NCBI RefSeq assembly: GCF_001272835.1
Contig: NZ_CP010546.1
Location: forward strand, 572,809-604,808
Direction of reading: 5' to 3'
Length of the DNA: 32,000 nucleotides
Source of the DNA: Mycoplasmoides pneumoniae FH
Lineage (GTDB): Bacteria > Bacillota_I > Bacilli_A > Mycoplasmatales > Mycoplasmoidaceae
Made by a program: the position numbers and the translations under genes. The notes below the pieces were generated by a model. It did no database searches, was not told where the DNA came from, and saw only the letters and a list, made by a program, of their open reading frames with translations. The stretch's first letter is position 1; each line of letters begins with the position of its first letter. Shown here in pieces: positions 8,853 to 32,000 of this stretch.

Positions 8853-9878
8853 ATGAACAAGCTAATTAGCATTCTGGTTCCTTGTTACCAATCCCAGCCC
8901 TTTCTCGATCGCTTTTTCAAATCACTTTTAAAGCAAGACTGGAACGGTGTTAAAGTAATCTTCTTTAATGATAACAAGCCAGATCCAACATACGAGATCC
9001 TAAAACAATTTCAACAAGCACATCCACAACTAGCGATTGAAGTACATTGTGGTGAGAAAAATGTCGGTGTAGGCGGTTCACGTGATCAACTAATAAATTA
9101 TGTAGACACACCCTACTTTTACTTTGTTGATCCTGATGATGAATTTAGTGATCCCAACTGTTTTAAGGCAATAGTGGAAACAATTCAAGGAGAAAACTTT
9201 GATATTGCAGTGTTAAACAGTATTGTTTACCTCCAAATGTTGAAGAATGACTTTTTAATTAAACACATTCCGCTCAAAAACATCTTTCAGGGCAAGGTAA
9301 AACTCAATCCTGATAACACCGTAAATCATTTGCACTATATCCAGAATAACGACCAGTACATTTGGAACATTGTCATCAACACCGCCTTTTTCAAAGCATT
9401 GGATTTGCAGTTTGTTAACCGCTTTATTGAAGACATTGCGGTGTGGTTTCCGATTATGTTTAAAGCCCAAAAAGTGCTGTGAATTGATGTAAATGGGGTT
9501 AACTATTACTTGCGACCGAACAGTGCTTCCACCCAGAAAAACAGCATTAAATTACTCTCCTTTATTGAGGCTTACGAACGGTTGTATTTCCACTTAAAGA
9601 AGGTGGGTAAGCTAGCTGATTTTATTGACCCTAACAATAAGATTGAAAGTCGTTTTTGACGGCGTCAAGCCTTCATTTGGTTTAGTTTTATTAATGTTTC
9701 ATGGATGAAAGCGGAATTTGAACAGACCAAAAGTGTGTTGCAAAAACTGTTTGACTTCATGGAAGCCAACGGCATCTACGACAGGGTATTTACTAATAAG
9801 CACCACGGTATTTACTTATTGTGAGTTAACCGCTTAAAACACTTTAAGAAGTTAGTGCAAGCACAACCACATCTATAA
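8853..9878 (+). CDS. Family 2 glycosyltransferase, 341 aa (MPN483-like glycolipid glycosyltransferase from memory)
   Basis: Track ORF 8853-9482 continues through three in-frame TGA (9480, 9657, 9822) to TAA at 9876-9878. GT-A N-terminus ISILVPCYQSQPFLDRFFKSLLKQ and DxD-like VDPDDEF. Confidence 0.85.
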
Positions 9879-9888
9879 GTTTTGTGTT

Positions 9889-10125
9889 CTAACAAGCTAA
9901 AGCTTCGAGTAGCTTTTTAAAAAGTTGTTCTCTTTCTAGAGTTTGTTTTCCATCTTGGGCTTGTACAACCATTTCCTTTTGATTAGCGTGAATCTTTATG
10001 TAAAGTGTGCGTTTATTATCTTCATTGGCTTCGTTAAAAGCTACAAATGAAATTAGCTCACTTTGATTGAGTGAATTCATTGCGTGATCAATAAAAGGTA
10101 GTTTGATAATTTTTTTATTTTTCAT
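9889..10125 (-). CDS. Hypothetical small protein, 78 aa from ATG 10125 (the track start at 10185 is a TTG)
   Basis: Open frame only; no recognisable domain. It lies at the edge of the RepMP1-like island, convergent with the glycosyltransferase. Confidence 0.3.
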   Translation of the reverse strand: MKNKKIIKLPFIDHAMNSLNQSELISFVAFNEANEDNKRTLYIKIHANQKEMVVQAQDGKQTLEREQLFKKLLEALAC

Positions 10126-10320
10126 AATTAATATTTGTTTTTTGGAGATTGAAAAAATAGCTACCACTTGCAACTCGGTTGCCAACAGGGATCAGACGTT
10201 TTGCTTATCAATTAAAAAAATAAAAGATTTGCATTTTGCTCCTCCACTAAATAAATTGAACTGAGACTTTATATGTGACAACAAAATTACCAAAAATTTT
10301 TTTGAATATTTTTTAGATAA

Positions 10321-10363
10321 ATAAAAATACCAACAACTGACATATAAAAATCAACTGCTGGTA
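10321..10363 (-). terminator. Rho-independent terminator of DUF16 gene A
   Basis: On the minus strand: UACCAGCAGUUGA, a 10-nt loop, UCAGUUGUUGGUA (13 bp including G-U pairs), then UUUUUAU. It starts about 20 nt after the TAG at 10383-10385. Confidence 0.55.
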
Positions 10364-10382
10364 CTTTTATTTTGGGTTGAAT

Positions 10383-10805
10383 CTACTTAGACTCCAAACG
10401 ATCCAAACGTTTGTTAATTACTTGAAGAGTTTCAAGAATTAACTTAAGCGTTTCCCCTTGGGTTTGAATTTGTTCGCCCTGCTTTTCAACAGTTTCAGTG
10501 AGCTTATTTATTTGTTCACCCTGAAGAATTGAAACTTTGATTAGCTGACTAATTTGTTCACCTTGAGAAACCAAAGTGTTCTCAATTTTTATCAGCCGCT
10601 GATTGTTGGAATTTTTGAAATCATTAAACTGCTTTTGGGTAACGTAACCACTTTTTCGTTTTTCCATATGGTTTAAATTGCCATAAAAGCCCATGTCATA
10701 GCTGCCATCAGGTAGATCTTCGATTCAGGCTTTTGATGTTTTAATCTTATCTTTTTTCAAATTTCTTTTAAACAAAGTAATTGAAATTTCACGTTTAATG
10801 ATCAA
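10383..10805 (-). CDS. DUF16 / UPF0134 family coiled-coil protein (start uncertain)
   Basis: Track ORF 10383-10694 carries QGEQI(N/S)(K/Q)L heptad-type repeats and the ...RLDRLESK C-terminus typical of DUF16. The frame stays open upstream through TGA 10725-10727 to TAA 10818-10820. No upstream ATG exists. TTG at 10805-10803 sits right after AAAGGAGG. ATG 10694 is the conservative alternative. Confidence 0.68.
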
Positions 10806-11110
10806 ATCCTCCTTTCTTTACAAGATTTAAAAAACTACAACGTGCAACAATGTTGCCAGAGGATATCAACTGCTTGGTTGATCCAGTAATTTTCTTGAAA
10901 TACTTCATAACGATCATTTCACTAAATAAATTGAGTAGTTGATTTGGAAGTAACAAGTAGAATTTCTGAAATTTTTGAAGAGTCAAAAAATCTATTCATG
11001 AAATTAATTGAATGAAATTCAGGTAACAAGGCCTTTTCAAACTAAAAAAGCGCTTTTGCCGCCCTACTAATTAATCAATTGCGTAAATCAAATTGAAACG
11101 CCAAATTTAT

Positions 11111-12556
11111 TTAACTCACCTCCCCCAAATCTTTCTTAAACTCACTTAACTTCCCCGCAGCAGCCAAATAATCCTTGTACTCGGATTGGATGTCGGTTAA
11201 GGCCTTTTTAAAGGTGGGGTTATCAGTGAAGGGTTTGGCCAAATCCGCACTTGATTTCAACAGCGCTTTGGCTAACTTAACCACTTCCGATTCTTGGGTA
11301 TCAGTCGATTGCTGTCTGCTTTGCTGGGTAGTTTGAACGCTAACAGAAGCTGCTCGGCTACTCCCCTGCACACTGCCCTTAACTTGGGTCCCCTGACCCG
11401 AACCCATCATCGCCACCAAAGCACCGTACAACTTCGCGGTTAACCCCGTTTGTGCTCACGTTTGGAACAGGCTGCCAGATTCCAGTAAGTTCAAACTAAA
11501 CTCGACGCCGTTTTCCTTAAAGTTATTACTCTTAGCTTGTAAATAGCGGTACAGCAAGATGTCGGCTTGTTTGGTGAAATCGCGTTTGTTGTTCGCCAAA
11601 AAATAATCACCACCGTCAATTGCCAGGGCGTATGTACCATCGTCACCACGGGCGTAAACAGGGGTTTGGAGTGTGGAGGTGGTTTGTTGAACTTGTTGCT
11701 GGGTGTGGGTAAGGGCGGCACTCCTTGGGAGCGGAATTAAAACAGAGTTGCCCCCGGAGCTACCACCAACATTGGTACCACTACTAGAATCTGCCCCAGT
11801 GGAAGCTGCCGCCATTGCTTGACTACTCGTCAACCGCACCGCGTCTTGGAGGTAGTGGTGTTTATCATTGGAATTATTACTACCCCCATTAGTTTGCCCG
11901 CCGCTCAGTTTGCGCTGGGTTGTGTAAAACGCATCGGTTTGATTATTCTGCTTCACCTTGACAAACGCCGGGTCGACCTTAAACCCGGGGGTTTGGTCGG
12001 TCATGGCAATTTTCGCACGCGAAACTATGGATCTAATCGCCACGGCATCCTTCCCCTCCATAAAAAAACTATCCAGCGGATTTTGGTTGGACTTATTCGA
12101 ATCTACCTTGACCTCGGGCAACGAACTCGTCTTACTCCCACCCACCAGGTACTCGTACTGGTCAATAATGGCCGTAGCTAACCCCACGCCCTTAAAGGCC
12201 CCGCGCAGGTTGGACTTGGTCACCAAGAGCTTATTGGCAGCGCCATTGCTGTTTCACTTGGTTTGCCAGTCAAACAACCCGGTGCGGGAGGATGTATTGG
12301 ATTGTTGGGTTTGACCATTCTTCTGCTCCGGAAACACCGCCTTAATGAAATCCCCGAAGTTTTGGGCACTGTTGGGGGTGGGGTCGAAGGTGGTTTTACC
12401 TTGGCTTTGTCCATTATTGGGCTCGCGAAACGCGGGGAAGGCATAGACCAACTGTAAGGCACTACCAATCGCGGCTTGGTCGTATAAGCTGTCGAGCCCG
12501 TCCTTGGGTGCTTGGTACGCGAAGAACGCTTGGGTGAGGGGAAACAGATAGAGCAA
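11111..12556 (-). pseudogene. Truncated, signal-peptide-less paralog fragment of the 14282-18382 lipoprotein gene
   Basis: Track ORFs 11111-11431, 11456-12226 and 12254-12556 are one frame joined by TGA at 11456 and 12254. Nucleotides 11114-12541 are near-identical to 16289-17710. The frame opens only at 12571 (TAA 12572-12574) with no ATG (first candidate TTG at 12556), there is no lipobox, and it ends at TAA 11111-11113 where the full gene continues. Confidence 0.65.
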
Positions 12557-12649
12557 AAGCTGTAAGCCACTTTATAATTAAGTAAATTATAGCAACGCTG
12601 TCAAAGCGTACTTTTACCATTGATTATTTCCTTAAAAAGACTTGTTTAA

Positions 12650-13876
12650 ATGACCAAAACTAAGTTTAATCCGTACCAATTTCGCAAACAATTTAAGTGG
12701 TTTAAAAACAACCCCCAATGGGTTAACTTTGACAACGCTGCTACCTCAATTGCGCTAGACACCGTTAGTCAAGCTTGCAAGGAATACTATGAGCTTTTTA
12801 GTGTCAACCCCCACAATAAAACCCCTGATCTCAACAACCAGATTATTGCCATTATTGCTGAAACCCGTCAACTAGTAGCGGACTGGTTTAATGTCACTGC
12901 ACCTGAAATTATCTTTACAAGTTCAGCCACGGAGTCCATTAATTTGTTTGCCCATGGCTTAAAGCCCTGGATTAAACCCGGTGATGAAATTGTCTTAAAG
13001 GGTGATGAACACTCGGCTAACGTTTTGCCCTGAGTGGCACTAGCTAAACAAACAAAGGCCAGACTAGTATGGGTCGAAAAGCAAGCTAACCAATCCTTAG
13101 AAGACACTTTTAAGTCATTGATTAACCCGAAAACTAAAGTAGTAGCCATTACCGCTACTTCCAATTTGTTTGGCAATTCAATTGACTTTGCTCAAATTGC
13201 CGATTACCTCAAACAAGTCAATCCTAAAGCTTTTGTAGCCGTGGATGCAGTGCAAACGGTGCAGCACAAGCAAATTGACATTGCCAAAACCCAGATCGAC
13301 TTCCTAGCCTTTTCTACTCATAAGTTTTACGGTCCCACTGGACTGGGGGTAGCTTACATTAAAAAAAGCTTACAACCCCAATTACAACCCCTCAAACTCG
13401 GGGGTGATATCTTTACCCAGATTGACCCGGACAATACAATTCACTTTAAAAGTACACCCCTAAAGTTTGAAGCCGGTACCCCCAACATTATGGCCATCTA
13501 TGCCTTAAACAAGCTGTTGCGCTTCTTTAAACAAAAGTTTAATTTTGCCCAAATGATGGCTTATGGTCACCAACTTAAACAACAAGCTTACGAACTGTTA
13601 AACAGTAATCCGCAAATTGTGCTGGCCAACCACGACCAGGATGTCCCGATTTTTTCCTTTAAACACCGCCAATTGGCTACCATTGATCTAGCCACTTTCC
13701 TAAACATCAATAAGATCATGGTACGCCAGGGCTCCATTTGTGTGGGACGTTACCGCAATAAGGATTACTTTGTGAGAGTTTCGTTAATGCACTATAACAC
13801 AGTGAAGGAGTTGCAGTATTTAGCTAAACTCCTAGCAACTGATACCAAGACAATTATTAAAAACGTAATTAAGTAA
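12650..13876 (+). CDS. nifS: Cysteine desulfurase (class V aminotransferase, NifS/SufS-like), 408 aa
   Basis: Track ORFs 12650-13033 and 13034-13876 are in frame and joined by TGA at 13031-13033. PLP-lysine motif FSTHKFYGPTGLG and a C-terminal Cys loop RQGSICVG. Confidence 0.9.
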
Positions 13877-13878
13877 CT

Positions 13879-14301
13879 ATGGATCGCAAAATAAGGGAGC
13901 AAATTATTGCCATTTACAGCAACTTACAACACAAACAGGACTTAACTCAGTTTGCCCATTGTTTAACCACTAAGGCTGATGATAACTGTGAGGACTTCTT
14001 TAACTTAGGCTTACAGTTTCAAAACAACCAACTAACAGCACTTGGTTTTAACGGGGAGGGTTGTATTATTTCGACAATTGCTAGTGAACTGACTTTAAGT
14101 GCGTTGGAAGGCAAAACAATCAAAGAAGCCATTGTCTTGTTAGAACAGTTTATGGAAGCTGTACAAACTGGTAGCTTAAGCACGCCACTACCCCAAGCTT
14201 TACAACTGTTGTGGGACTTTCAGATTGACCAGAAGCGTTTAAACTGCTTACTCCTAACACCACAGAATTTGCTACAGTGGCTTAAAGATTTTTCGCACTA
14301 A
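13879..14301 (+). CDS. nifU: NifU/SufU-like Fe-S cluster scaffold protein, 140 aa
   Basis: Intact ORF starting 2 nt after the nifS stop. It has a [14 protein letters not shown] cysteine motif and a second Cys in ADDNCEDFF. Confidence 0.78.
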
Positions 14302-17300
14302 GCGCTAGCGTTTGCCCTAACGCATCATACAAGCGTTTGTCACCCACCAGGATTTGCTGGTGACTACGTTTGTTTTGCACCTGGTTAGCGCGCACTAAGT
14401 CTAAAAAGGCTAACTCTTGCGTACCAGCGTCCAAGGCTTGTTCTACTAGTAAAGCCATAAAGATTTCCTTTTTGAGGCCTAAAGCACTGTTCTTATCAGT
14501 TTTTCAACTAGCAGAAATTTTGTTAACGTCCTCGTTGGTAATCTGAATGACATAGCTCAAAGTCTTGACACTCGAGTCCTTGGTGAGTGGTACGGCTTTG
14601 GCTTTCTTATAGTCTTCGTTACCTTGGGAACTACTACTTGAATCAGACATCTTCACCTTGGTTTGGCCAACATAACCTTCGAACTTGTTAAAGTAACCAT
14701 CATCCAGTTTGTCCACTACATCAACCAAGAACTTCTTCTTGTTGTCAAAGCTAATCAACGGTTCCCCACTGGAGTTAAAACGTCCTAAGTTACTGGTATC
14801 GACATTAACTGCACGGTGCAACACTTCACCAAAGGCATTGAGCTCGGCATCGGAATTAGTGTTTTGGATTAAGCGTTTCAGGGTTGCTTTATCCTTGTAC
14901 TGGCTCAAGGCCCCGGATTTGTCACTACTTGTTACTAACTGACCAAAGTTGTTAAAGATTTGTTCCGTGAGTCCGGCACTAGCAGTCGACACACTTTGGG
15001 GCGAGTTAATCGTTAAACCGTTAAAGCCAAAGAAGTGTTTTTCGTTAGTGGTACCACCAGTAGACCTCTTTTGACTTTTCGTCTTATCATCAAACGGTTC
15101 CGCGGTAAAGTTGTAAGTGCTTTCGCTTTCCAGTAACGAATCGGGTTTAATTGGCGTACTCTTATCGTTAAATCAGTTGGTTTCCGAACCCTGGACATAA
15201 TCGGGGTTTTGGACAAACTTATTGAAGGGGTTGTCGCTTTGAGTATTTGTTGCCTGAGCTGTCTTTAATACTGCTACTTGCGCTTTTGCTGCGGCTGCTG
15301 ATGCCGTAGCCGTATCATCATAGCTCACCGTTCACGACACAAAGGCACGGGTACCCACGGTAATCGCTTGTTGGAGCAAGCGCTTATAGTTCTTCGCCCC
15401 ATCCTTAACTAGTCACATTAAGGTGGACAAGAAGCGCAGGTACTTGTACTGCCCATCACTACTAGATGCTTCCAGTTCACTTTCAAACGCTTTTTTACCG
15501 AGTTCCAAGAGGGTTTGATCACCAGATTTTTGCATGCCACTTGAAGCTACAGCATTTGCAACTGCTGCGCTACTTGAAAGTGAAACCATTCCTGATTGAG
15601 CTGCTTGTGCTTTTACACTACCCAACTCCTTGTAATAACCAAACTTTTCCTTGGAAGTGAGTCGTTGTCAGGAACGTAAGTACAAGGTTTGTTTAACGAG
15701 GTCGTTAAAGTCCTTGTACTCATTGCCTTTAAGTTCTTTCTTTTCAGAATCGTAATTGTTCTTAAAGTCGTTGGTATTAGTAAAGAACCACTCCTTAAAG
15801 GAATTGAGAATCTTGGTTCACTTAATCCCAACATCAGACAATAAGGCCAAGATCATGTTGGTCTGGGGCTTATTGTCCTTACTCTTGAGCGAAACAATTT
15901 CGGAGAACTGACTACCAATTTGGGGTGTTGCACCTCATTTGGTGATTAAACTAGATGCTTTAGTTTCTACATCACTAGTTAACTGCTTTAACTTTTTGTC
16001 GTTGTTTTCCCGAGTCGGTTTGATGTCCGGTTGTTTAACGGTGTTTGTGCTTTTTTGACTATCTGTTGTCTTTAGTGTTACTAAAGCGGCAGATCCTGAT
16101 TCAGATGCTTTTACTTTTCCATCTGCTGCACTATCTTCCGGAATAAAGAACTTCTCTAAAGCGGGGTAACTACCATCACTAGCGCGTTGGTAAGGGAGCG
16201 GTTGGCCCAAGCCAATCGCACTCTTTTGGGCTTGTTTTTCTAGTTGAATGTACTTATCAGCGCGGTCAATAATAGCTTGCTGTAAGCCACTCACCTCCCC
16301 CAAATCTTTCTTAAACTCACTTAACTTCTCCGCAGCAGCCAAATAATCCTTGTACTCGGATTGGATGTCGGTTAAGGCCTTTTTAAAGGTGGGGTTATCA
16401 GTGAAGGGTTTGGCCAAATCCGCACTTGATTTCAGCAGGGACTTGGCTAACTTAACCACTTCCGATTCTTGGGTATCAGTCGATTGCTGTCTGCTTTGCT
16501 GGGTAGTTTGAACGCTAACAGAAGCTGCTCGGCTACTCCCCTGCACACTGCCCTTAACTTGGGTCCCCTGACCCGAACCCATCATCGCCACCAAAGCACC
16601 GTACAACTTCGCGGTTAACCCCGTTTGTGCTCACGTTTGGAACAGGCTGCCAGATTCCAGTAAGTTCAAACTAAACTCGACGCCGTTTTCCTTAAAGTTA
16701 TTACTCTTAGCTTGTAAATAGCGGTACAGCAAGATGTCGGCTTGTTTGGTGAAATCGCGTTTGTTGTTCGCCAAAAAATAATCACCACCGTCAATTGCCA
16801 GGGCGTATGTACCATCGTCACCACGGGCGTAAACAGGAGTTTGGAGTGTGGAGGTGGTTTGTTGAACTTGTTGCTGGGTGTGGGTAAGGGCGGCACTCCT
16901 TGGGAGCGGAATTAAAACAGAGTTGCCCCCGGAGCTACCACCAACATTGGTACCACTACTAGAATCTGCCCCAGTAGAAGCTGCCGCCATTGCTTGACTA
17001 CTCGTCAACCGCACCGCGTCTTGGAGGTAGTGGTGTTTACCCTGGGAGTTATTATCCCCACTTTGCCCGCCGCTCAGTTTGCGCTGGTTTTGGTAAAAGG
17101 TATCGTTCTGCTGACTCTGCTTCACCTTGACAAACGCCGGGTTGACCTTAAACCCGGGGGTTTGGTCGGTCATGGCAATTTTCGCACGCGAAACTATGGA
17201 TCTAATCGCCACCGCATCCTTCCCCTCCATAAAAAAACTATCCAGCGGATTTTGGTTGGACTTATTCGAATCTACCTTGACCTCGGGCAACGAACTCGTT

Positions 17301-18382
17301 TTTTTCCCACCCACCAGGTACTCGTACTGGTCAATAATGGCCGTAGCTAACCCCACGCCCTTAAAGGCCCCGCGCAGGTTGGACTTGGTCACCAAGAGCT
17401 TATTGGCAGCGCCATTGGAGTTTCACTTGGTTTGCCAGTCAAACAACCCGGTGCGGGAGGATGTATTGGATTGTTGGGTTTGACCATTCTTCTGCTCCGG
17501 AAACACCGCCTTAATGAAATCCCCGAAGTTTTGGGCACTGTTGGGGGTGGGGTCGAAGGTGGTTTTACCTTGGCTTTGTCCATTATTGGGCTCGCGAAAC
17601 GCGGGGAAGGCATAGCCCAACTGTAAGGCACTACCAATCGCGGCTTGGTCGTATAAGCTGTCGAGCCCGTCCTTGGGTGCTTGGTACGCGAAGAAGGCTT
17701 GGGTGAGGGGGAGGGGGTTTTCCTCCACTACTCACTGGGCAAATAGATAAGCCTGGAGGTTAGCAAAGAACTCCCCGTTAGGATCATTTGGTTTGGAATT
17801 AACAAACTTGATTTTGTTGCTAGTACTGTCGAGGTTATCTTTGGTAGTGGGTTTAAACTGATCACTACCATCAGTCAACTGCACATTAGCAACAATGTTG
17901 CTAAAGATAAGTGATTGGAAGTCGGCTATTAAACGGTCGTATAACTTTAAGGCCTTTCAGGAACTTTCACTCCCACCCCACTGGTCGTATTCCTTTTGGA
18001 GCTCTATTGGTCAATTAATCGGTTCGGCCTGTTGTTTTTGGTCCAACAGGTTATCATGTTCATCCTCCACGTTTTCACTAAAGATAGTTAAACGGGTAGC
18101 AATGTTGCGATCCTTATTGTTTTGGTACCAACTCTTTAACGCTTCACCAAAGTTAACCCTTAAAATGGTTTCCGTACCATTGTCCTCAGCTAAAGCGGCT
18201 TTTAGTACAGCTTCAGGTTTAATGATGTTGTTTTCGGTAAACCCAATCAACTGCTTGGAGCGGTTTTGACGGGGAAACAGATTGGAGGTATTGAGTGCAG
18301 AACACGCCGCTAGCACCACCCCTAGGCCAATTCCGGTAAATGTAAACGCAACTAAAGGTCATCGCTTTAACTTATAACCCAT
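14282..18382 (-). CDS. Large surface lipoprotein, 1366 aa (MG307/MG309/MG338-family, MPN489-like from memory)
   Basis: Six track fragments (14504-14992, 15413-15625, 15935-16606, 16631-17395, 17423-17728, 18011-18319) share one frame. I translated every gap by hand and found only TGA stops. ATG at 18382-18380 gives [27 protein letters not shown], a signal peptide with lipobox LAAC. The apparent stop at 14504 is also TGA; the true stop is TAA at 14282-14284. Confidence 0.85.
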
Positions 18383-19892: not shown

Positions 19893-19965
19893 TGTCGTTT
19901 ACATCATCTAAATTGATTCAAAAAGGGAAAAACGCCATTTTTTTAGATAATTAAGGCAAATTTTT

Positions 19966-21390
19966 ATGAAATTAACACTTTGGCTGGTGTTGGGCGCTGT
20001 CGGAGTCGGTGCAGTTGGTACGGGTGTGGGCTTTGGTACCAAGTACTTTTTAGACCACAAAGCCAAAAGTAACGTGGACGTTGCGTTTAAACAACGTTCA
20101 CTACGCAAACAGGTCAATGTGGGCTTTTGGAATGCACTCAACTTCTTGGGTAGTGAAAGAAGTTTCGGCAACCAAAACAGTAAGGTTAAAACCAAGGGGA
20201 TTGCTGAAATTATTAACCTCCTTAAGTACGACATTGTCGGTTTAGCGGAAATTCAACCATCCACTGAAAGTACTGCTGAACGGTTTGTCGACCAACTCAA
20301 CGAGTACGCTGATCCTTATACCTCCTGGTCTTATGATCTATCTCCCGTAACTACCAGTAAGACTGCTAGTGAAGGCCAGAAGGAACGGATCTTAATTGTT
20401 TACAACAGCCAGAGTGTCAAAATGGAGGGACAAGGTTGGTTTTATGACAATCCCGAAATGGACATTAGTAACTATGTCAGTGATGGGAGTTCTTCCAAAA
20501 CAAGAACACCTAAGAAAACTAAAACTAGTAAAAAGAAGCCTACTAAAAAGAAAAGTTCAAGAAGCAAATCTTCCAAAGGTAGTAAGAAACAAAAAACTAC
20601 CAATGAAAGTGAAAGTGAAACTTTAGAACTCAAACTGGAACAACGCCGTGTAACAACACGCTCACAATCAAAGCAACAAAAGGGGCAAGAACAAGCAACT
20701 GATCAAACTGATAGTGAGGGTGTGACTACTGAAGAAGGAGCAGATAACACTGACACTGAATTAGTTGAAACCACAGCGGAAACAACCGAACAAGAAGCTA
20801 CCACGGAAAGTACAAAAGACACTAAGGAAACTAAAGATAGAATCAAAGTGGACTGATCGCGTCCCCCTTACAGTGCTGAATTTAGTACCCAAAAGGGCAA
20901 AGTAGTAGTGGCTTTTGGTCATTTTGACTCTCCGGGGGCAAACACTAAGCGGGGTGAAAAAATCGCTAAGATGGGCAAGGGTCAAGGTGCCCATGAATAC
21001 TTTGAAGCGCAAACTACCTTCAAGGCAATGGATTCCATTAAGCAGCACTTTAACAACGAAAACATCCTGTTTATGGCTGACACTAACATTAAATTCGGTA
21101 ATCAAGCCGCTGCTTTTGGTGAAAGCAAAGATTACACCTTTTTAACTGAAGATAATGAAGCGTGAAAATCTTCATTGGGTACAAAGAGTGGTTATGCCAA
21201 CCCTTATGATAAGATTATTACCTCTAACAGCTTTAAGAATAAGGTCTTGAATCAAGCTGAACCCTACTGAAATTACTTTGACCGTTACTTAAAAACTAAG
21301 GGTCACAATAGTTATCTGTTTGATCTAGCTAGTTGGGGCACTAAACCTAGAACTATTTCTGACCACGCCCCTGTAGGAGTGTTGTTTTAA
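19966..21390 (+). CDS. Membrane-anchored endonuclease/exonuclease/phosphatase-family nuclease, 474 aa (MnuA/MPN491-like)
   Basis: Track ORF 19966-20856 continues through TGA at 20854, 21163 and 21259 to TAA 21388-21390. N-terminal TM helix LTLWLVLGAVGVGAVGTGVGFG, an EEP-type N-terminal block VGFWNALNF...DIVGLAEIQ and C-terminal catalytic SDHAPVGV. Confidence 0.85.
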
Positions 21391-30907: not shown

Positions 30908-31237
30908 AATTCACATAAATAAAAAAGCCATCTGCCCAAGGTGAAAAAAACAGACGGCTTTTTGGCGATTTTGAAATTAACAGCAAGTTGTAACTTTTAG
31001 TGATTTGAATGAAAGGAATATATGACCTTTATTCTTTTAAAAAAAGAGATACATCAATTGTGCTGAAAGCCATTGCGTTAACATAAATAAATTAAGACAT
31101 AAAAAATAAACACATTAATCAAATAAGTGTGGGAACAGAAAATTAGGCTTTCAACACAAAATTTTCGTTTTCCTGCCCCCACTAAATAAATTGAGTTGGG
31201 TTTTAAAAAGCGTCAAAAATTTTAATTTAGTTTTTGC

Positions 31238-32000
31238 TACTTTCCCCTCCCCCTCACGGGTGAAAACCCCGGCGCTTGGGCCTTAGTGCGCGATAACATT
31301 GCCAAGGGCATCACTGCCGGTAGTAACACCCAACAAACCACGTATGATCCCACCCGAACCGAGGCCACCTTGACCACCGCCACCACCTTTGCGTTACGCC
31401 GGTATGACCTCGCCGGGCGCGCCTTATACGACCTCGATTTTTCGAAGTTAAACCCACAAACGCCCACGCGCGACCAAACCGGGCAGATCACCTTTAACCC
31501 CTTTGGCGGCTTTGGGCTGAGTGGGGCTGCACCCCAACAGTGAAACGAGGTCAAGGATAAGGTCCCCGTCGAGGTGGCCCAAGACCCCTCCAATCCTTAT
31601 CGGTTTGCCGTTTTACTCGTGCCGCGCAGCGTGGTGTACTATGAGCAGTTGCAGCGGGGGTTAGCGCTCCCTAACCAAGGGAGTTCGTCAGGCTCCGGTC
31701 AACAAAACACCACCATTGGCGCGTATGGGCTGAAGGTGAAAAACGCCGAGGCGGACACCGCGAAGAGCAATGAAAAACTCCAGGGCTATGAATCCAAGTC
31801 TTCCAATGGATCTTCAAGCACTTCCACCACCCAACGTGGGGGTTCGTCAAATGAAAACAAAGTCAAGGCGTTGCAGGTGGCGGTGAAAAAGAAATCCGGG
31901 AGTCAGGGCAACTCCGGTGACCAAGGCACCGAACAGGTGGAACTTGAATCTAATGATTTAGCCAACGCCCCGATTAAACGGGGCTCCAATAACAACCAGC
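31238..32000 (+). repeat. RepMP4-like silent cassette encoding the N-proximal part of adhesin P1; runs off the right edge
   Basis: The frame opens after TAA 31223-25 with ...[42 protein letters not shown]...[32 protein letters not shown](TGA 31541)NEVKDKVPVEVAQDPSNPYRFAVLLVPRSVVYYEQLQRG. I recognise this as N-terminal P1 sequence. There is no ATG start and the segment is GC-rich. Confidence 0.8.

What the first reader, a model, noticed from the sequence alone, without database searches (positions are those of the whole stretch)
9889..12556. Both DUF16/RepMP1 islands directly abut start-less, GC-rich surface-protein cassettes
Island A (10186-11110) is immediately followed by the truncated lipoprotein copy (11111-12556). 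Island B (29865-31237) is sandwiched between the RepMP2/3-like P1 cassette (28158-29864) and the RepMP4-like P1 cassette (31238 onward).

In both cases, an AT-rich module sits flush against a silent cassette. The module contains a 15-nt core, an AAAGGAGG box, a DUF16 coiled-coil gene and a strong terminator.

The left junction of the lipoprotein duplication (about 11103-11113, AAATTTATTTAA) itself resembles the core (CAATTTATTTAG in reverse).

This raises the hypothesis that RepMP1/DUF16 modules are junction or insulator elements for cassette storage, acquisition or transcriptional silencing, not merely dispersed repeats. DUF16 has no established function.
Basis: inference. Interest (0 to 1): 0.6.

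Follow-up and report, generated by a model that had tools for sequence, protein, structure and literature searches.

The report
Recombination-sigma promoter modules beside adhesin cassettes
The repeated AT-rich modules beside Mycoplasma pneumoniae's spare surface-protein gene pieces are most likely copied promoters for the rarely active recombination sigma factor, each driving a small protein or small RNA, rather than joints or silencers; the spare pieces seem to carry their own end signal.

Summary
The adjacency is real and genome-wide: 20 of 24 adhesin cassettes have a module promoter within 500 nt (rotation null 2.8, p=0.001). The '15-nt core' is the extended -10 box of a sigma-20 (MPN626)-type promoter: 38 of 40 cores have the published -35 (at most 1 mismatch) exactly 19 nt upstream. 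Core-like strings sit at only 1 of 50 cassette ends. Island A's strong terminator faces away from the cassette. An M. genitalium-like genome keeps cassettes without any module. Modules carry three cargoes: DUF16 genes, an 11-copy ~80-aa protein family, and a 17-copy candidate structured RNA with no Rfam match. Cassette ends themselves are C-rich (5') and G-rich (3') in both species, the lipoprotein copy included. That copy also shows a circular-permutation mark. Against my reading: published MPN626 overexpression raised 8 of 24 DUF16 genes seen, but not this window's two. Terminators abut 16 of 50 cassette ends, so partial insulation is possible. The scan already noted these promoters elsewhere in this genome (e1-2516373).

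The parts
9889..10125 (-). Small ORF (78 aa from ATG 10125), member of an 11-copy family of 68-93 aa proteins behind module promoters; no Pfam family
   Evidence: strong hits only near-identical to the genome's own members among 1.84 billion representatives
10245..10281 (-). Sigma-20-type promoter, class I: -35 TTGTCA 10281-10276, 19 nt, -10 ATTTAT 10256-10251; contains the 15-nt core
   Evidence: consensus from PMC4446450
10322..10369 (-). Strong intrinsic terminator after the DUF16 gene, on the side away from the lipoprotein copy
   Evidence: -24.7 kcal/mol, z -9.1
10383..10805 (-). DUF16 gene (MPN484 locus); 140 aa from TTG behind AAAGGAGG. A sigma-70 TAAGAT box at 10749-10744 inside the frame fits the published start of the short 103-aa form
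10795..10917 (-). Leader ORF (40 aa) overlapping the DUF16 start
10920..10956 (-). Sigma-20-type promoter in front of the DUF16 gene: TTGTTA-N19-ATTTAT plus core
11074..11104 (-). Third sigma-20-like site, TTGGCG-N19-ATTGAT, 10 nt from the cassette end and pointing away from it (score 16; 1-2 above 15 per simulated genome)
11103..11114 (+).
11114..12542 (-). Partial copy (MPN485/486 region) of the DUF3713 lipoprotein gene; begins with a C-rich tract and ends with a G-rich tract
11865..11974 (-). Variable patch holding 25 of the 40 copy-versus-source differences, frame kept
12543..12571 (-). 13-mer (12571-12559) that also straddles the 3' breakpoint in the source gene and occurs nowhere else in the genome, then a 16-nt linker holding the in-frame TTG: possible circular-permutation mark
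12586..12594 (-). TGCTATAAT extended -10 box facing the copy; the cysteine desulfurase -10 box TATAAT is on the + strand at 12573-12578
   Evidence: MPN487 start in PMC4332154 Table S2
14282..18382 (-). Source DUF3713 lipoprotein gene (MPN489 locus); duplicated part 16289-17710
19908..19938 (-). recA promoter ATGGCG-N19-ATTTAG, the published sigma-20 site; positive control in the window
28158..29864 (+). RepMP2/3 P1 cassette (MPN500 locus); C-rich 5' end joined to ordinary, non-module DNA; G-rich 3' end
29865..29893 (+). AT-rich hairpin flush with the cassette 3' end; the same junction recurs in 6 copies genome-wide
   Evidence: (z -5.6)
29928..30111 (+). Degenerate site TTGGTG-N19-ATTTAG at 29928 and full sigma-20-type promoter TTGGCG-N19-ATTTAT at 30075-30105 with core
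30123..30230 (+). Leader ORF (35 aa) whose stop overlaps the DUF16 ATG (TAATG); AAAGGAGG at 30213
30230..30841 (+). DUF16 gene (MPN501 locus), 203 aa, with 21-nt tandem repeats
30857..30963 (.). Two hairpins with A/T runs on both sides (bidirectional terminator-like)
   Evidence: z -5.3 and -2.0
30928..31180 (-). Candidate class II small RNA (about 253 nt): 5' stem, AT-rich body, terminator; one of 17 copies; transcription not shown
31181..31216 (-). Sigma-20-type promoter TTGACG-N19-ATTTAT pointing away from the RepMP4 cassette
31245..32000 (+). RepMP4 P1 cassette (MPN502 locus), starting in a C-rich tract 29 nt from the -35 box

Best explanation
RepMP1/DUF16 modules are amplified transcription units for the alternative sigma factor MPN626 (sigma-20), which also controls recA and ruvAB. 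Each unit is promoter, cargo, terminator; the '15-nt core' is the extended -10 box. The cargo is a DUF16 coiled-coil gene (often behind a leader ORF), an ~80-aa protein, or a 165-270-nt structured RNA. SHOWN: promoter anatomy, cargo classes, terminators, co-localisation with adhesin cassettes. INFERRED: (a) these sites fire in the rare sigma-20-on cells; (b) modules sit beside cassettes because both spread by repeat-mediated duplication and deletion into the few dispensable parts of a minimal genome, with about nine module-cassette junctions formed and then copied as composite units; (c) cassette ends are set by their own C-rich (5') and G-rich (3') tracts, not by the module; (d) the lipoprotein copy is a one-off, probably circular, fragment of the nearby gene inserted between a module promoter and the cysteine desulfurase promoter. 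The terminators keep most sigma-20 transcripts out of the cassettes, but that is the ordinary end of each unit rather than a silencing device.
For: 38 of 40 cores (at most 1 mismatch) have a -35 within 1 mismatch of TTGGCR/TTGTCA at spacer 19; TTG[GTA]C occurs in 35 of 40 at spacer 19 and in 0-2 of 40 at every other spacer 10-29. Spacer columns vary (commonest base 13-40 of 40) while both boxes are near-invariant. The published M. pneumoniae consensus is TTGGCR-N18/19-ATTYAT (PMC4446450), and the same scan recovers sites matching the published boxes for MPN014, 313, 534, 571 and 614 and recA. Strict sites: 35 vs 3-9 in five Markov genomes. 23 of 27 DUF16 loci have a co-oriented site within 700 nt upstream. 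On MPN626 overexpression 8 of 24 DUF16 rows seen were up, vs 12 of 379 other rows seen (PMC6721554 Table S5). Junction table shows the same composite junctions copied 3-6 times. End tracts: 9.0 vs 4.5 C at 8 distinct 5' ends (p<1e-5), 6.3 vs 4.2 G at 13 distinct 3' ends (p=3e-4); 5.9 vs 3.4 and 5.6 vs 3.3 in G009; no such bias in 200 simulated inserts. G009 has only 108 nt between the two flanking genes.
Against: MPN484, 485, 486 and 500-503, the loci of this window, show no entry in the MPN626 overexpression column; overexpression was weak (0.8 log2) and paralogues may cross-hybridise either way. Mapped starts for MPN484 and MPN501 lie inside the frames at sigma-70-type boxes, not at the cores. 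No annotated RNA starts at the island-B class II site or the island-A sites, and ncMPN263 only partly overlaps another class II copy. Box conservation in recently copied repeats is not independent evidence. About 9 of about 28 junction classes (by eye) touch a module, more than one copied event explains, so selection for adjacency is not excluded. The rotation null ignores landing-site constraints. Some G009 cassette ends are orthologous to those here, so that replicate is not fully independent.
Confidence: 0.62

Rival explanations
1. Functional coupling: the modules are kept beside cassettes because sigma-20 transcription next to a cassette end (especially the class II RNAs ending flush with RepMP5 3' ends or leaving RepMP4 5' ends) opens or marks the cassette for RecA-mediated exchange, with DUF16 trimers as DNA-binding helpers and the G-rich end tracts as start or stop signals.
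For: Sigma-20 drives non-coding RNAs in M. genitalium MgPar cassettes (PMC6105099). Offsets are stereotyped: 210-219 nt at 3' ends, 17-31 nt at RepMP4 5' ends, 436-462 nt for class I. About 9 separate junction classes touch modules. 12 of 25 DUF16 proteins, including MPN484 and MPN501, scored as DNA-binding in a screen (PMC6721554 supplement). The class II 5' stem is paired in 133 of 136 cells at 56-99% identity.
Against: No transcription or recombination data for any class II copy. 4 of 24 cassettes have no module promoter within 500 nt. G009 varies its adhesins without these modules. Published recombination rates in M. pneumoniae are low (PMC8714221). Stereotyped offsets also follow from copying. 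The stem register was chosen to maximise pairing, and an unguided alignment fold found only 3 pairs.
Confidence: 0.2
2. Insulator or silencer: the modules were kept for their terminators, which stop transcription entering silent cassettes.
For: Top-5% hairpins within 60 nt of 6 of 25 5' ends and 10 of 25 3' ends. 10 of 11 cassette-facing module promoters have a terminator before the cassette; 17 of 28 nearby promoters face away. The one class I unit without a terminator precedes a RepMP4 cassette, and MPN128, which by gene order probably lies there (inferred), rose 1.6 log2 on MPN626 overexpression.
Against: 34 of 50 ends lack a hairpin, and the 16 come from about five copied junctions. Only 6 of 25 ends are protected on the sense-entry side. 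In island A the terminator is on the far side and a TATAAT box faces the copy. MPN500 has an upstream operon start and an antisense RNA. MPN149, by gene order probably the cassette behind a terminated unit (inferred), also rose. Cassette genes rise on RNase III loss (MPN485 5.9, MPN500 3.2 log2), so they are transcribed and degraded rather than blocked.
Confidence: 0.1
3. Site-specific junction: the 15-nt core is a crossover or attachment site used to acquire or store cassettes.
For: A 2-mismatch core-like 12-mer lies exactly at the lipoprotein copy's left junction (about 4% chance for an AT-rich position). The published type-2 deletion of mpn130 ends in two direct sRepB repeats (PMC3472980).
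Against: 1 of 50 adhesin-cassette ends has a core-like string. True cores lie 50-450 nt from ends. The core has fixed promoter spacing. No recombinase domain among the ORFs scanned. The mpn130 deletion was explained by ordinary homologous recombination between repeats.
Confidence: 0.03
4. Relic of a mobile element: modules are decayed copies of a phage- or element-derived unit, and the promoter boxes are kept only by recent copying and gene conversion, with no current role.
For: Lineage-specific: DUF16 over the cut-off in 1 of 41 genomes, class II RNA in 1 of 12. Several cargo frames are broken. The beta-layer coiled coil of MPN010 is a type common in phage fibres (PMC4786415). The loci are non-essential.
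Against: Boxes and spacer length are kept while spacers and cargoes diverge (small proteins 21-29% identical to the window's copy). A third of DUF16 genes seen respond to MPN626. No terminal inverted repeats around island A, no transposase, no viral fold match.
Confidence: 0.08

Closest known systems
Sigma-20 (MG428/MPN626) recombination regulon promoters (Torres-Puig 2015, PMC4446450; 2018, PMC6105099; passages read)
   Same: -35 TTGGCR/TTGTCA, 19-nt spacer, -10 ATTTAT; same boxes as before recA in this window; sigma-20 also drives non-coding RNAs at cassettes in M. genitalium.
   Different: Published sites are about a dozen single-copy promoters; here about 50 sites lie in repeats, with a longer conserved -10 context and three multi-copy cargoes. 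M. genitalium's RNAs lie inside MgPar repeats, whereas class II units lie outside and end before the cassette.
RepMP1 mosaic with sRepA/B/C and DUF16 genes (Musatovova 2012, PMC3472980, parts 1-4 of 5 read; Forsyth and Geary 1996 not read)
   Same: Same elements: RepMP1 genes, intergenic short repeats, 21-nt tandem repeats in MPN501. Two sRepB copies flanking MPN139 are 704 nt apart in M129; my two promoter sites there are 703 nt apart.
   Different: That paper treats the short repeats only as recombination substrates. The promoter reading, the small-protein family and the class II RNA were not in the text I read.
RepMP2/3, RepMP4, RepMP5 and MgPar silent adhesin cassettes
   Same: Island B's neighbours are these cassettes. 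The lipoprotein copy shares partial-copy structure, a central variable patch and the same end composition.
   Different: The lipoprotein copy is single-copy, comes from a non-adhesin gene, has an in-frame TTG and an upstream TATAAT, and exchange with its source is unproven.
MPN626 targets in Yus 2019 (PMC6721554, Table S5)
   Same: MPN013, 137, 138, 139 and 145 (DUF16) are already starred as MPN626 targets; MPN130, 204 and 524 also rise.
   Different: The window's MPN484 and MPN501 are not listed. The text I read does not link the motif to RepMP1 repeats; Figure 3A (motif logo) could not be seen.
Neisseria pilE G4 motif with its cis small RNA, and Chi sites (both recalled, not from a call)
   Same: A G-rich oriented tract beside a variable locus with nearby non-coding transcription; G-rich tract near the 3' end of each strand.
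   Different: Tracts here are degenerate, lie at the ends of donor cassettes, and no structure or enzyme was tested. A lead only.

Membership tests
Sigma-20 (MG428/MPN626) promoter | -35 TTGGCR or TTGTCA | tested here: met
   38 of 40 cores within 1 mismatch (23 exact), consensus
Sigma-20 (MG428/MPN626) promoter | 18-19 nt spacer and -10 ATTWAT/ATTYAT | tested here: met
   spacer 19 in 39 of 40 best matches; ATTTAT in 39 of 40
Sigma-20 (MG428/MPN626) promoter | Transcription depends on the sigma factor | tested here: inconclusive
   Published overexpression: 8 of 24 DUF16 rows seen up, but not MPN484 or MPN501
Sigma-20 (MG428/MPN626) promoter | Mapped start just downstream of the -10 box | not testable with these tools
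   Only assembled contigs were available; published starts under ordinary growth lie elsewhere
DUF16 (PF01519) | Score above the curated cut-off | tested here: met
   125.5 and 150.4 bits vs 40; profile hits 2BA2 at E 4.7e-16
RepMP1 / sRepB repeats | Short intergenic repeat flanking RepMP1 genes at the published positions | tested here: met
   703 vs 704 nt spacing around MPN139; single site where type 2 strains keep one sRepB
RepMP1 / sRepB repeats | Sequence identity to the published sRepB | not tested
Site-specific recombination (att-type) junction | Conserved core at the joints | tested here: not met
   1 of 50 ends vs 4% background
Transcriptional insulator of silent cassettes | Terminator between upstream transcription and the cassette 5' end | tested here: not met
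   6 of 25 5' ends only; absent at both cassette 5' ends of island B and at the lipoprotein copy
Silent antigenic-variation cassette (RepMP/MgPar type), for the lipoprotein copy | Partial copy with conserved flanks and a variable middle | tested here: met
   25 of 40 differences in 110 of 1428 nt
Silent antigenic-variation cassette (RepMP/MgPar type), for the lipoprotein copy | No promoter and no start codon | tested here: not met
   In-frame TTG 12556 and ATG 12061, TGCTATAAT upstream; no mapped start is listed, however
Silent antigenic-variation cassette (RepMP/MgPar type), for the lipoprotein copy | Sequence exchange with the expressed gene | tested here: inconclusive
   4 of 15 listed cluster records are mosaic for the patch, but all are partial or on short contigs and may be assembly chimeras
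Insertion sequence / MITE | Terminal inverted repeats and a transposase | tested here: not met
   No inverted pair flanking island A at 20 nt or more; no transposase among 17 ORFs scanned; target duplications not searched systematically
Known RNA family (Rfam 15), for class II units | Match to a covariance model | tested here: not met
   10 loci scanned to E 1: only a tRNA and two sub-threshold microRNA hits

The most novel reading that the evidence does not exclude
M. pneumoniae has turned its RepMP1 repeats into a distributed, sigma-20-switched cassette-handling system. About 50 copied promoters express DUF16 DNA-binding trimers in a long, head-bearing form, an uncharacterised 11-copy small protein, and a 17-copy structured RNA transcribed right up to or away from cassette ends. 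Oriented G-rich tracts at the ends of every donor cassette, including a newly recruited lipoprotein cassette, mark where exchange starts or stops.
Probability: 0.17. Interest if true: 0.8.

Novelty: new variant of a known kind. Interest (0 to 1): 0.52.

Why it matters
RepMP1 has been an unexplained repeat since 1988 and DUF16 is the largest family of unknown function in this model minimal cell. Reading the repeat core as a sigma-20 promoter ties both to the recombination regulon. It explains why ordinary transcriptomes see only short internal forms, and it predicts exact start sites, an unannotated RNA family and a small-protein family that existing overexpression data or an in vitro assay can check. 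The C-rich/G-rich end signature in two species makes the open question of how RepMP/MgPar cassette ends are set directly testable.

Tried and rejected
Core as junction motif: rejected. Circular-permutation mark in adhesin cassettes: none found, longest shared strings 4-8 nt at 25 cassettes; it is peculiar to the lipoprotein copy. Origin of the 16-nt linker: no exact second copy; one 1-mismatch hit at 215724 is probably chance. General rule that modules abut truncated non-adhesin paralogues: the lipoprotein copy is the only GC-rich case; three other DUF16 loci lie under 700 nt from AT-rich duplications and one at 806 nt, using a hand-made block list with no permutation test. Fold of the small protein: model pLDDT 70, alpha-beta-beta-alpha, no Foldseek match at E 0.001 in PDB or viral libraries, best VIA Z 4.7, no Atlas hit; this does not show a new fold. 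Homology of the small protein to the DUF16 head: profile probability 7%, inconclusive. Fold of the DUF16 head: low confidence, no match. Expression: all 24 runs were contigs; 4 were laid on 9300-13000 and broke at repeats, so strand, starts and levels could not be read. Unguided consensus fold of class II 5' ends failed through misalignment (3 pairs); the sequence-only model found 17 full copies plus one partial in G000 and none in 11 congeners. Literature searches that found no link between sRepB/RepMP1 and sigma-20, no MPN485 paper and no report of G-rich cassette ends: (open-licence library only). BLAST-end artefact for the end signature: not seen in simulation. In one search two core sites missed by the scan filter were added by hand, and cassettes under 300 nt and the expression locus were dropped; one merged cassette was later split, giving 25.
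Full report
SETTING. The window is G000:572809-604808 of an 817,207-nt genome read with code 4. P1 adhesin, DUF16 and DUF3713 genes and named cluster members identify it as Mycoplasma pneumoniae. MPN locus labels below are assigned by protein content and by coordinate offsets to PMC4332154 Table S2.

THE OBSERVATION. Both adjacencies are real. Island A (9889-11113, GC 0.31) touches a 1,428-nt, 97.3% copy of part of the lipoprotein gene at 14282-18382. Island B (GC 0.33) lies between a RepMP2/3 and a RepMP4 cassette. In the 580-kb congener G009 (M. genitalium-like by size and gene order), only 108 nt separate the glycosyltransferase and cysteine desulfurase genes, so island A plus the copy is a lineage-specific 2.7-kb insert. 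Of 24 adhesin cassettes outside the P1 operon, 20 have a module promoter within 500 nt (2,000 rotations: mean 2.8, p=0.001) and 14 have a DUF16 frame within 500 nt (mean 2.2, p=0.001). The converse is weaker: 13 of 27 DUF16 loci lie within 2 kb of a cassette, and none within 300 nt. The null ignores copied junctions and the scarcity of dispensable landing sites. By eye, about 9 of about 28 distinct junction classes touch a module.

WHAT THE CORE IS. There are 35 exact and 40 near-exact cores. In 38 of 40, a hexamer within one mismatch of TTGGCR or TTGTCA lies exactly 19 nt before the ATTTAT inside the core. TTG[GTA]C is seen in 35 of 40 at spacer 19 and in at most 2 of 40 at any other spacer from 10 to 29. 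PMC4446450 (passages) gives TTGTCA-N18/19-ATTWAT for M. genitalium sigma-20 and TTGGCR-N18/19-ATTYAT for M. pneumoniae. My scan recovers sites matching its listed single-copy boxes and the recA site in this window at 19938. Strict sites number 35 against 3-9 in five simulated genomes; matrix scores above 15 number 51 against 1-2 (the matrix was built from the cores, so this is partly circular). Two published sRepB repeats around MPN139 are 704 nt apart and my two sites there are 703 nt apart, so the core is most likely part of sRepB; I did not see the sRepB sequence. Island A has three sites, all on the minus strand and facing away from the lipoprotein copy (10281, 10956, 11104). Island B has a convergent pair (30075 +, 31216 -) and a degenerate site at 29928.

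EXPERIMENTAL SUPPORT AND ITS LIMITS. In PMC6721554 Table S5 I read parts 1, 2, 5 and 6 of 7 plus six rows (403 rows; column located by counting tabs by eye). MPN626 overexpression raised 8 of 24 DUF16 rows seen and 12 of 379 others, including recA and ruvAB; MPN675 was not seen, and I saw 20 of the 25 changes the paper counts. Five DUF16 genes are starred as direct targets, so part of this link is already in a supplement. Against my reading, MPN484, 485, 486 and 500-503 have no entry. Overexpression was only 0.8 log2, and paralogues may cross-hybridise. Under ordinary growth the mapped starts of MPN484 and MPN501 are inside the frames. This scan noted the same promoter type before DUF16 genes elsewhere in this genome (e1-2516373); I had reached that reading before the look-up (note), and I confirmed its leader ORF only in this window's two copies.

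THREE CARGOES. (1) DUF16 genes: 23 of 27 loci have a co-oriented site within 700 nt. The family is a trimeric beta-layer coiled coil (2BA2). Twelve of 25 members, including both here, scored as DNA-binding in a screen. One paper reports NOD2 activation (PMC11165193, abstract only). (2) An 11-copy family of 68-93 aa proteins, one at 9889-10125. Its six strong hits among 1.84 billion representatives are near-identical to the genome's own members; two weak partial hits to long repetitive proteins were not examined. No fold match was found. (3) Seventeen class II units of 167-268 nt, one at 31180-30928, with a 5' stem, an AT-rich body and a terminator. The first 8 pairs are kept in 133 of 136 cells at 56-99% pairwise identity, with both-sided changes at pairs 9-10; the register was picked to maximise pairing. 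There is no Rfam match in 10 loci and none in 11 congeners. Transcription is not shown: no listed RNA starts there, and ncMPN263 only partly overlaps another copy.

JUNCTION HYPOTHESIS. The 12-mer at 11103-11114 does match the core with 2 mismatches, but it overlaps the upstream side of the -35 box at 11104 and lacks its own -35. Only 1 of 50 adhesin-cassette ends has such a match within 15 nt, against 4% of AT-rich positions. Eleven RepMP2/3 copies have seven unrelated upstream flanks, all joined within 18 nt of one source position, and only one flank class is a module terminator. G009 has dozens of cassette pieces with no DUF16, core pattern or class II unit. The published mpn130 deletion does end in two sRepB repeats, but as homologous recombination between direct repeats. 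The signal at cassette ends lies inside the cassettes: 9.0 C in the first 16 nt at 8 distinct 5' ends (background 4.5, p<1e-5; G 0.9) and 6.3 G in the last 16 nt at 13 distinct 3' ends (background 4.2, p=3e-4). The lipoprotein copy has 9 C and 9 G, each in the top 1.5% of windows of its source gene. G009 repeats the pattern (15 and 10 ends, p=4e-5 and 0.0015), although some ends are orthologous. Simulated inserts show no bias. The mechanism is inference: trimming or strand invasion that halts at G-rich 3' ends, by analogy with Chi or the Neisseria G4 (both recalled).

INSULATOR HYPOTHESIS. Hairpins in the top 5% of AT-rich DNA abut 6 of 25 5' ends and 10 of 25 3' ends. Of 28 promoters near ends, 17 face away, and 10 of the 11 that face a cassette have a terminator first. 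So sigma-20 transcripts mostly stay out of cassettes. But 34 of 50 ends have no hairpin and the rest derive from about five junctions. In island A the strong terminator (z -9.1) is downstream of DUF16, the hairpin near the junction is unremarkable (z -0.3), and a TGCTATAAT box and an in-frame TTG face the copy. MPN500 has an upstream operon start and an antisense RNA, and RNase III loss raises MPN485 and MPN500 strongly. Silence is more likely due to missing signal peptides and RNA decay (inference).

THE LIPOPROTEIN COPY. Twenty-five of its 40 differences fall in 110 nt with the frame kept, like an adhesin cassette. The 13 nt that straddle the source's 3' breakpoint recur 16 nt upstream of the copy's 5' end and nowhere else, which fits insertion of a circular fragment; adhesin cassettes show no such mark. 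Four of 15 listed protein records are mosaic for the patch, but they may be assembly chimeras.

VERDICT. The modules are most likely sigma-20 promoter units copied along with cassettes (0.62; the promoter identity alone about 0.85). Functional coupling to cassette exchange remains open (0.2). Papers seen: PMC3472980 parts 1-4 of 5, supplements not read; PMC4446450, PMC8714221, PMC12505857, PMC4786415 and bioRxiv 2025.02.06.636790 passages; PMC6105099 passages, section 3.2 and a supplement search; PMC6721554 passages, section 11 and parts of supplements 1, 6, 8 with rows of 2, 3, 7; PMC4332154 supplement rows only (10 of 22 files not searched); PMC11165193 abstract. Figure 3A of PMC6721554, Table S2 of PMC3472980 and subscription papers (Forsyth and Geary 1996; Spuesens 2009) were not seen and could already contain the promoter-repeat link or the end motif. 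My claim that these are not in print rests only.

Noticed in passing
window 12571-12559 (-) and 16291-16279 (-): A 13-mer straddling the source gene's 3' breakpoint recurs just upstream of the copy's 5' end and nowhere else in the genome; fits insertion of a circular fragment at a shared 3-nt overlap.
   Followed up: partly
all RepMP2/3, 4, 5 ends in G000; MgPar ends in G009 (L050): Cassette 5' ends are C-rich and 3' ends G-rich, so each strand has a G-rich tract near its 3' end; seven unrelated flanks join the RepMP2/3 5' end within 18 nt.
   Followed up: yes
window 30928-31180 (-) and 16 other copies: Candidate sigma-20 small RNA family with a conserved 8-12 bp 5' stem, a second hairpin and a terminator; longest ORF 44 aa or less; no Rfam match.
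   Followed up: partly
window 9889-10125 (-) and 10 other copies: Unnamed ~80-aa protein family behind class I promoters; four or five copies are truncated by the same frameshift or a stop.
   Followed up: partly
window 10749-10744 (-) and about 30373 (+): Published housekeeping starts lie inside both DUF16 frames, so ordinary growth may make only the coiled coil and sigma-20 the form with the N-terminal head.
   Followed up: no
window 11114-12542, 28158-29864: RNase III knock-out raises MPN485 by 5.9 log2 and MPN500 by 3.2 log2 in published data, suggesting double-stranded RNA decay as the silencing route.
   Followed up: no
G000 115997/116087, 164312/164402, 197078/197166, 437248/437353, 563243/563348, 607384/607473: Six back-to-back promoter pairs about 90-105 nt apart: class II RNA one way, DUF16 the other.
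   Followed up: no
G000, 24 cassettes: All adhesin cassettes lie on the + strand, like the P1 operon, across 113-607 kb.
   Followed up: no
G000 168575-169334 and 176786-178107: No DUF16 gene at the mpn130 position and two rather than three at mpn137-139: the published type-2 arrangement.
   Followed up: no
window 19966-21390 (+): 474-aa membrane-anchored ORF with no Pfam hit, a lysine/threonine/glutamate-rich middle and motifs resembling a nuclease-phosphatase fold (recalled resemblance).
   Followed up: no
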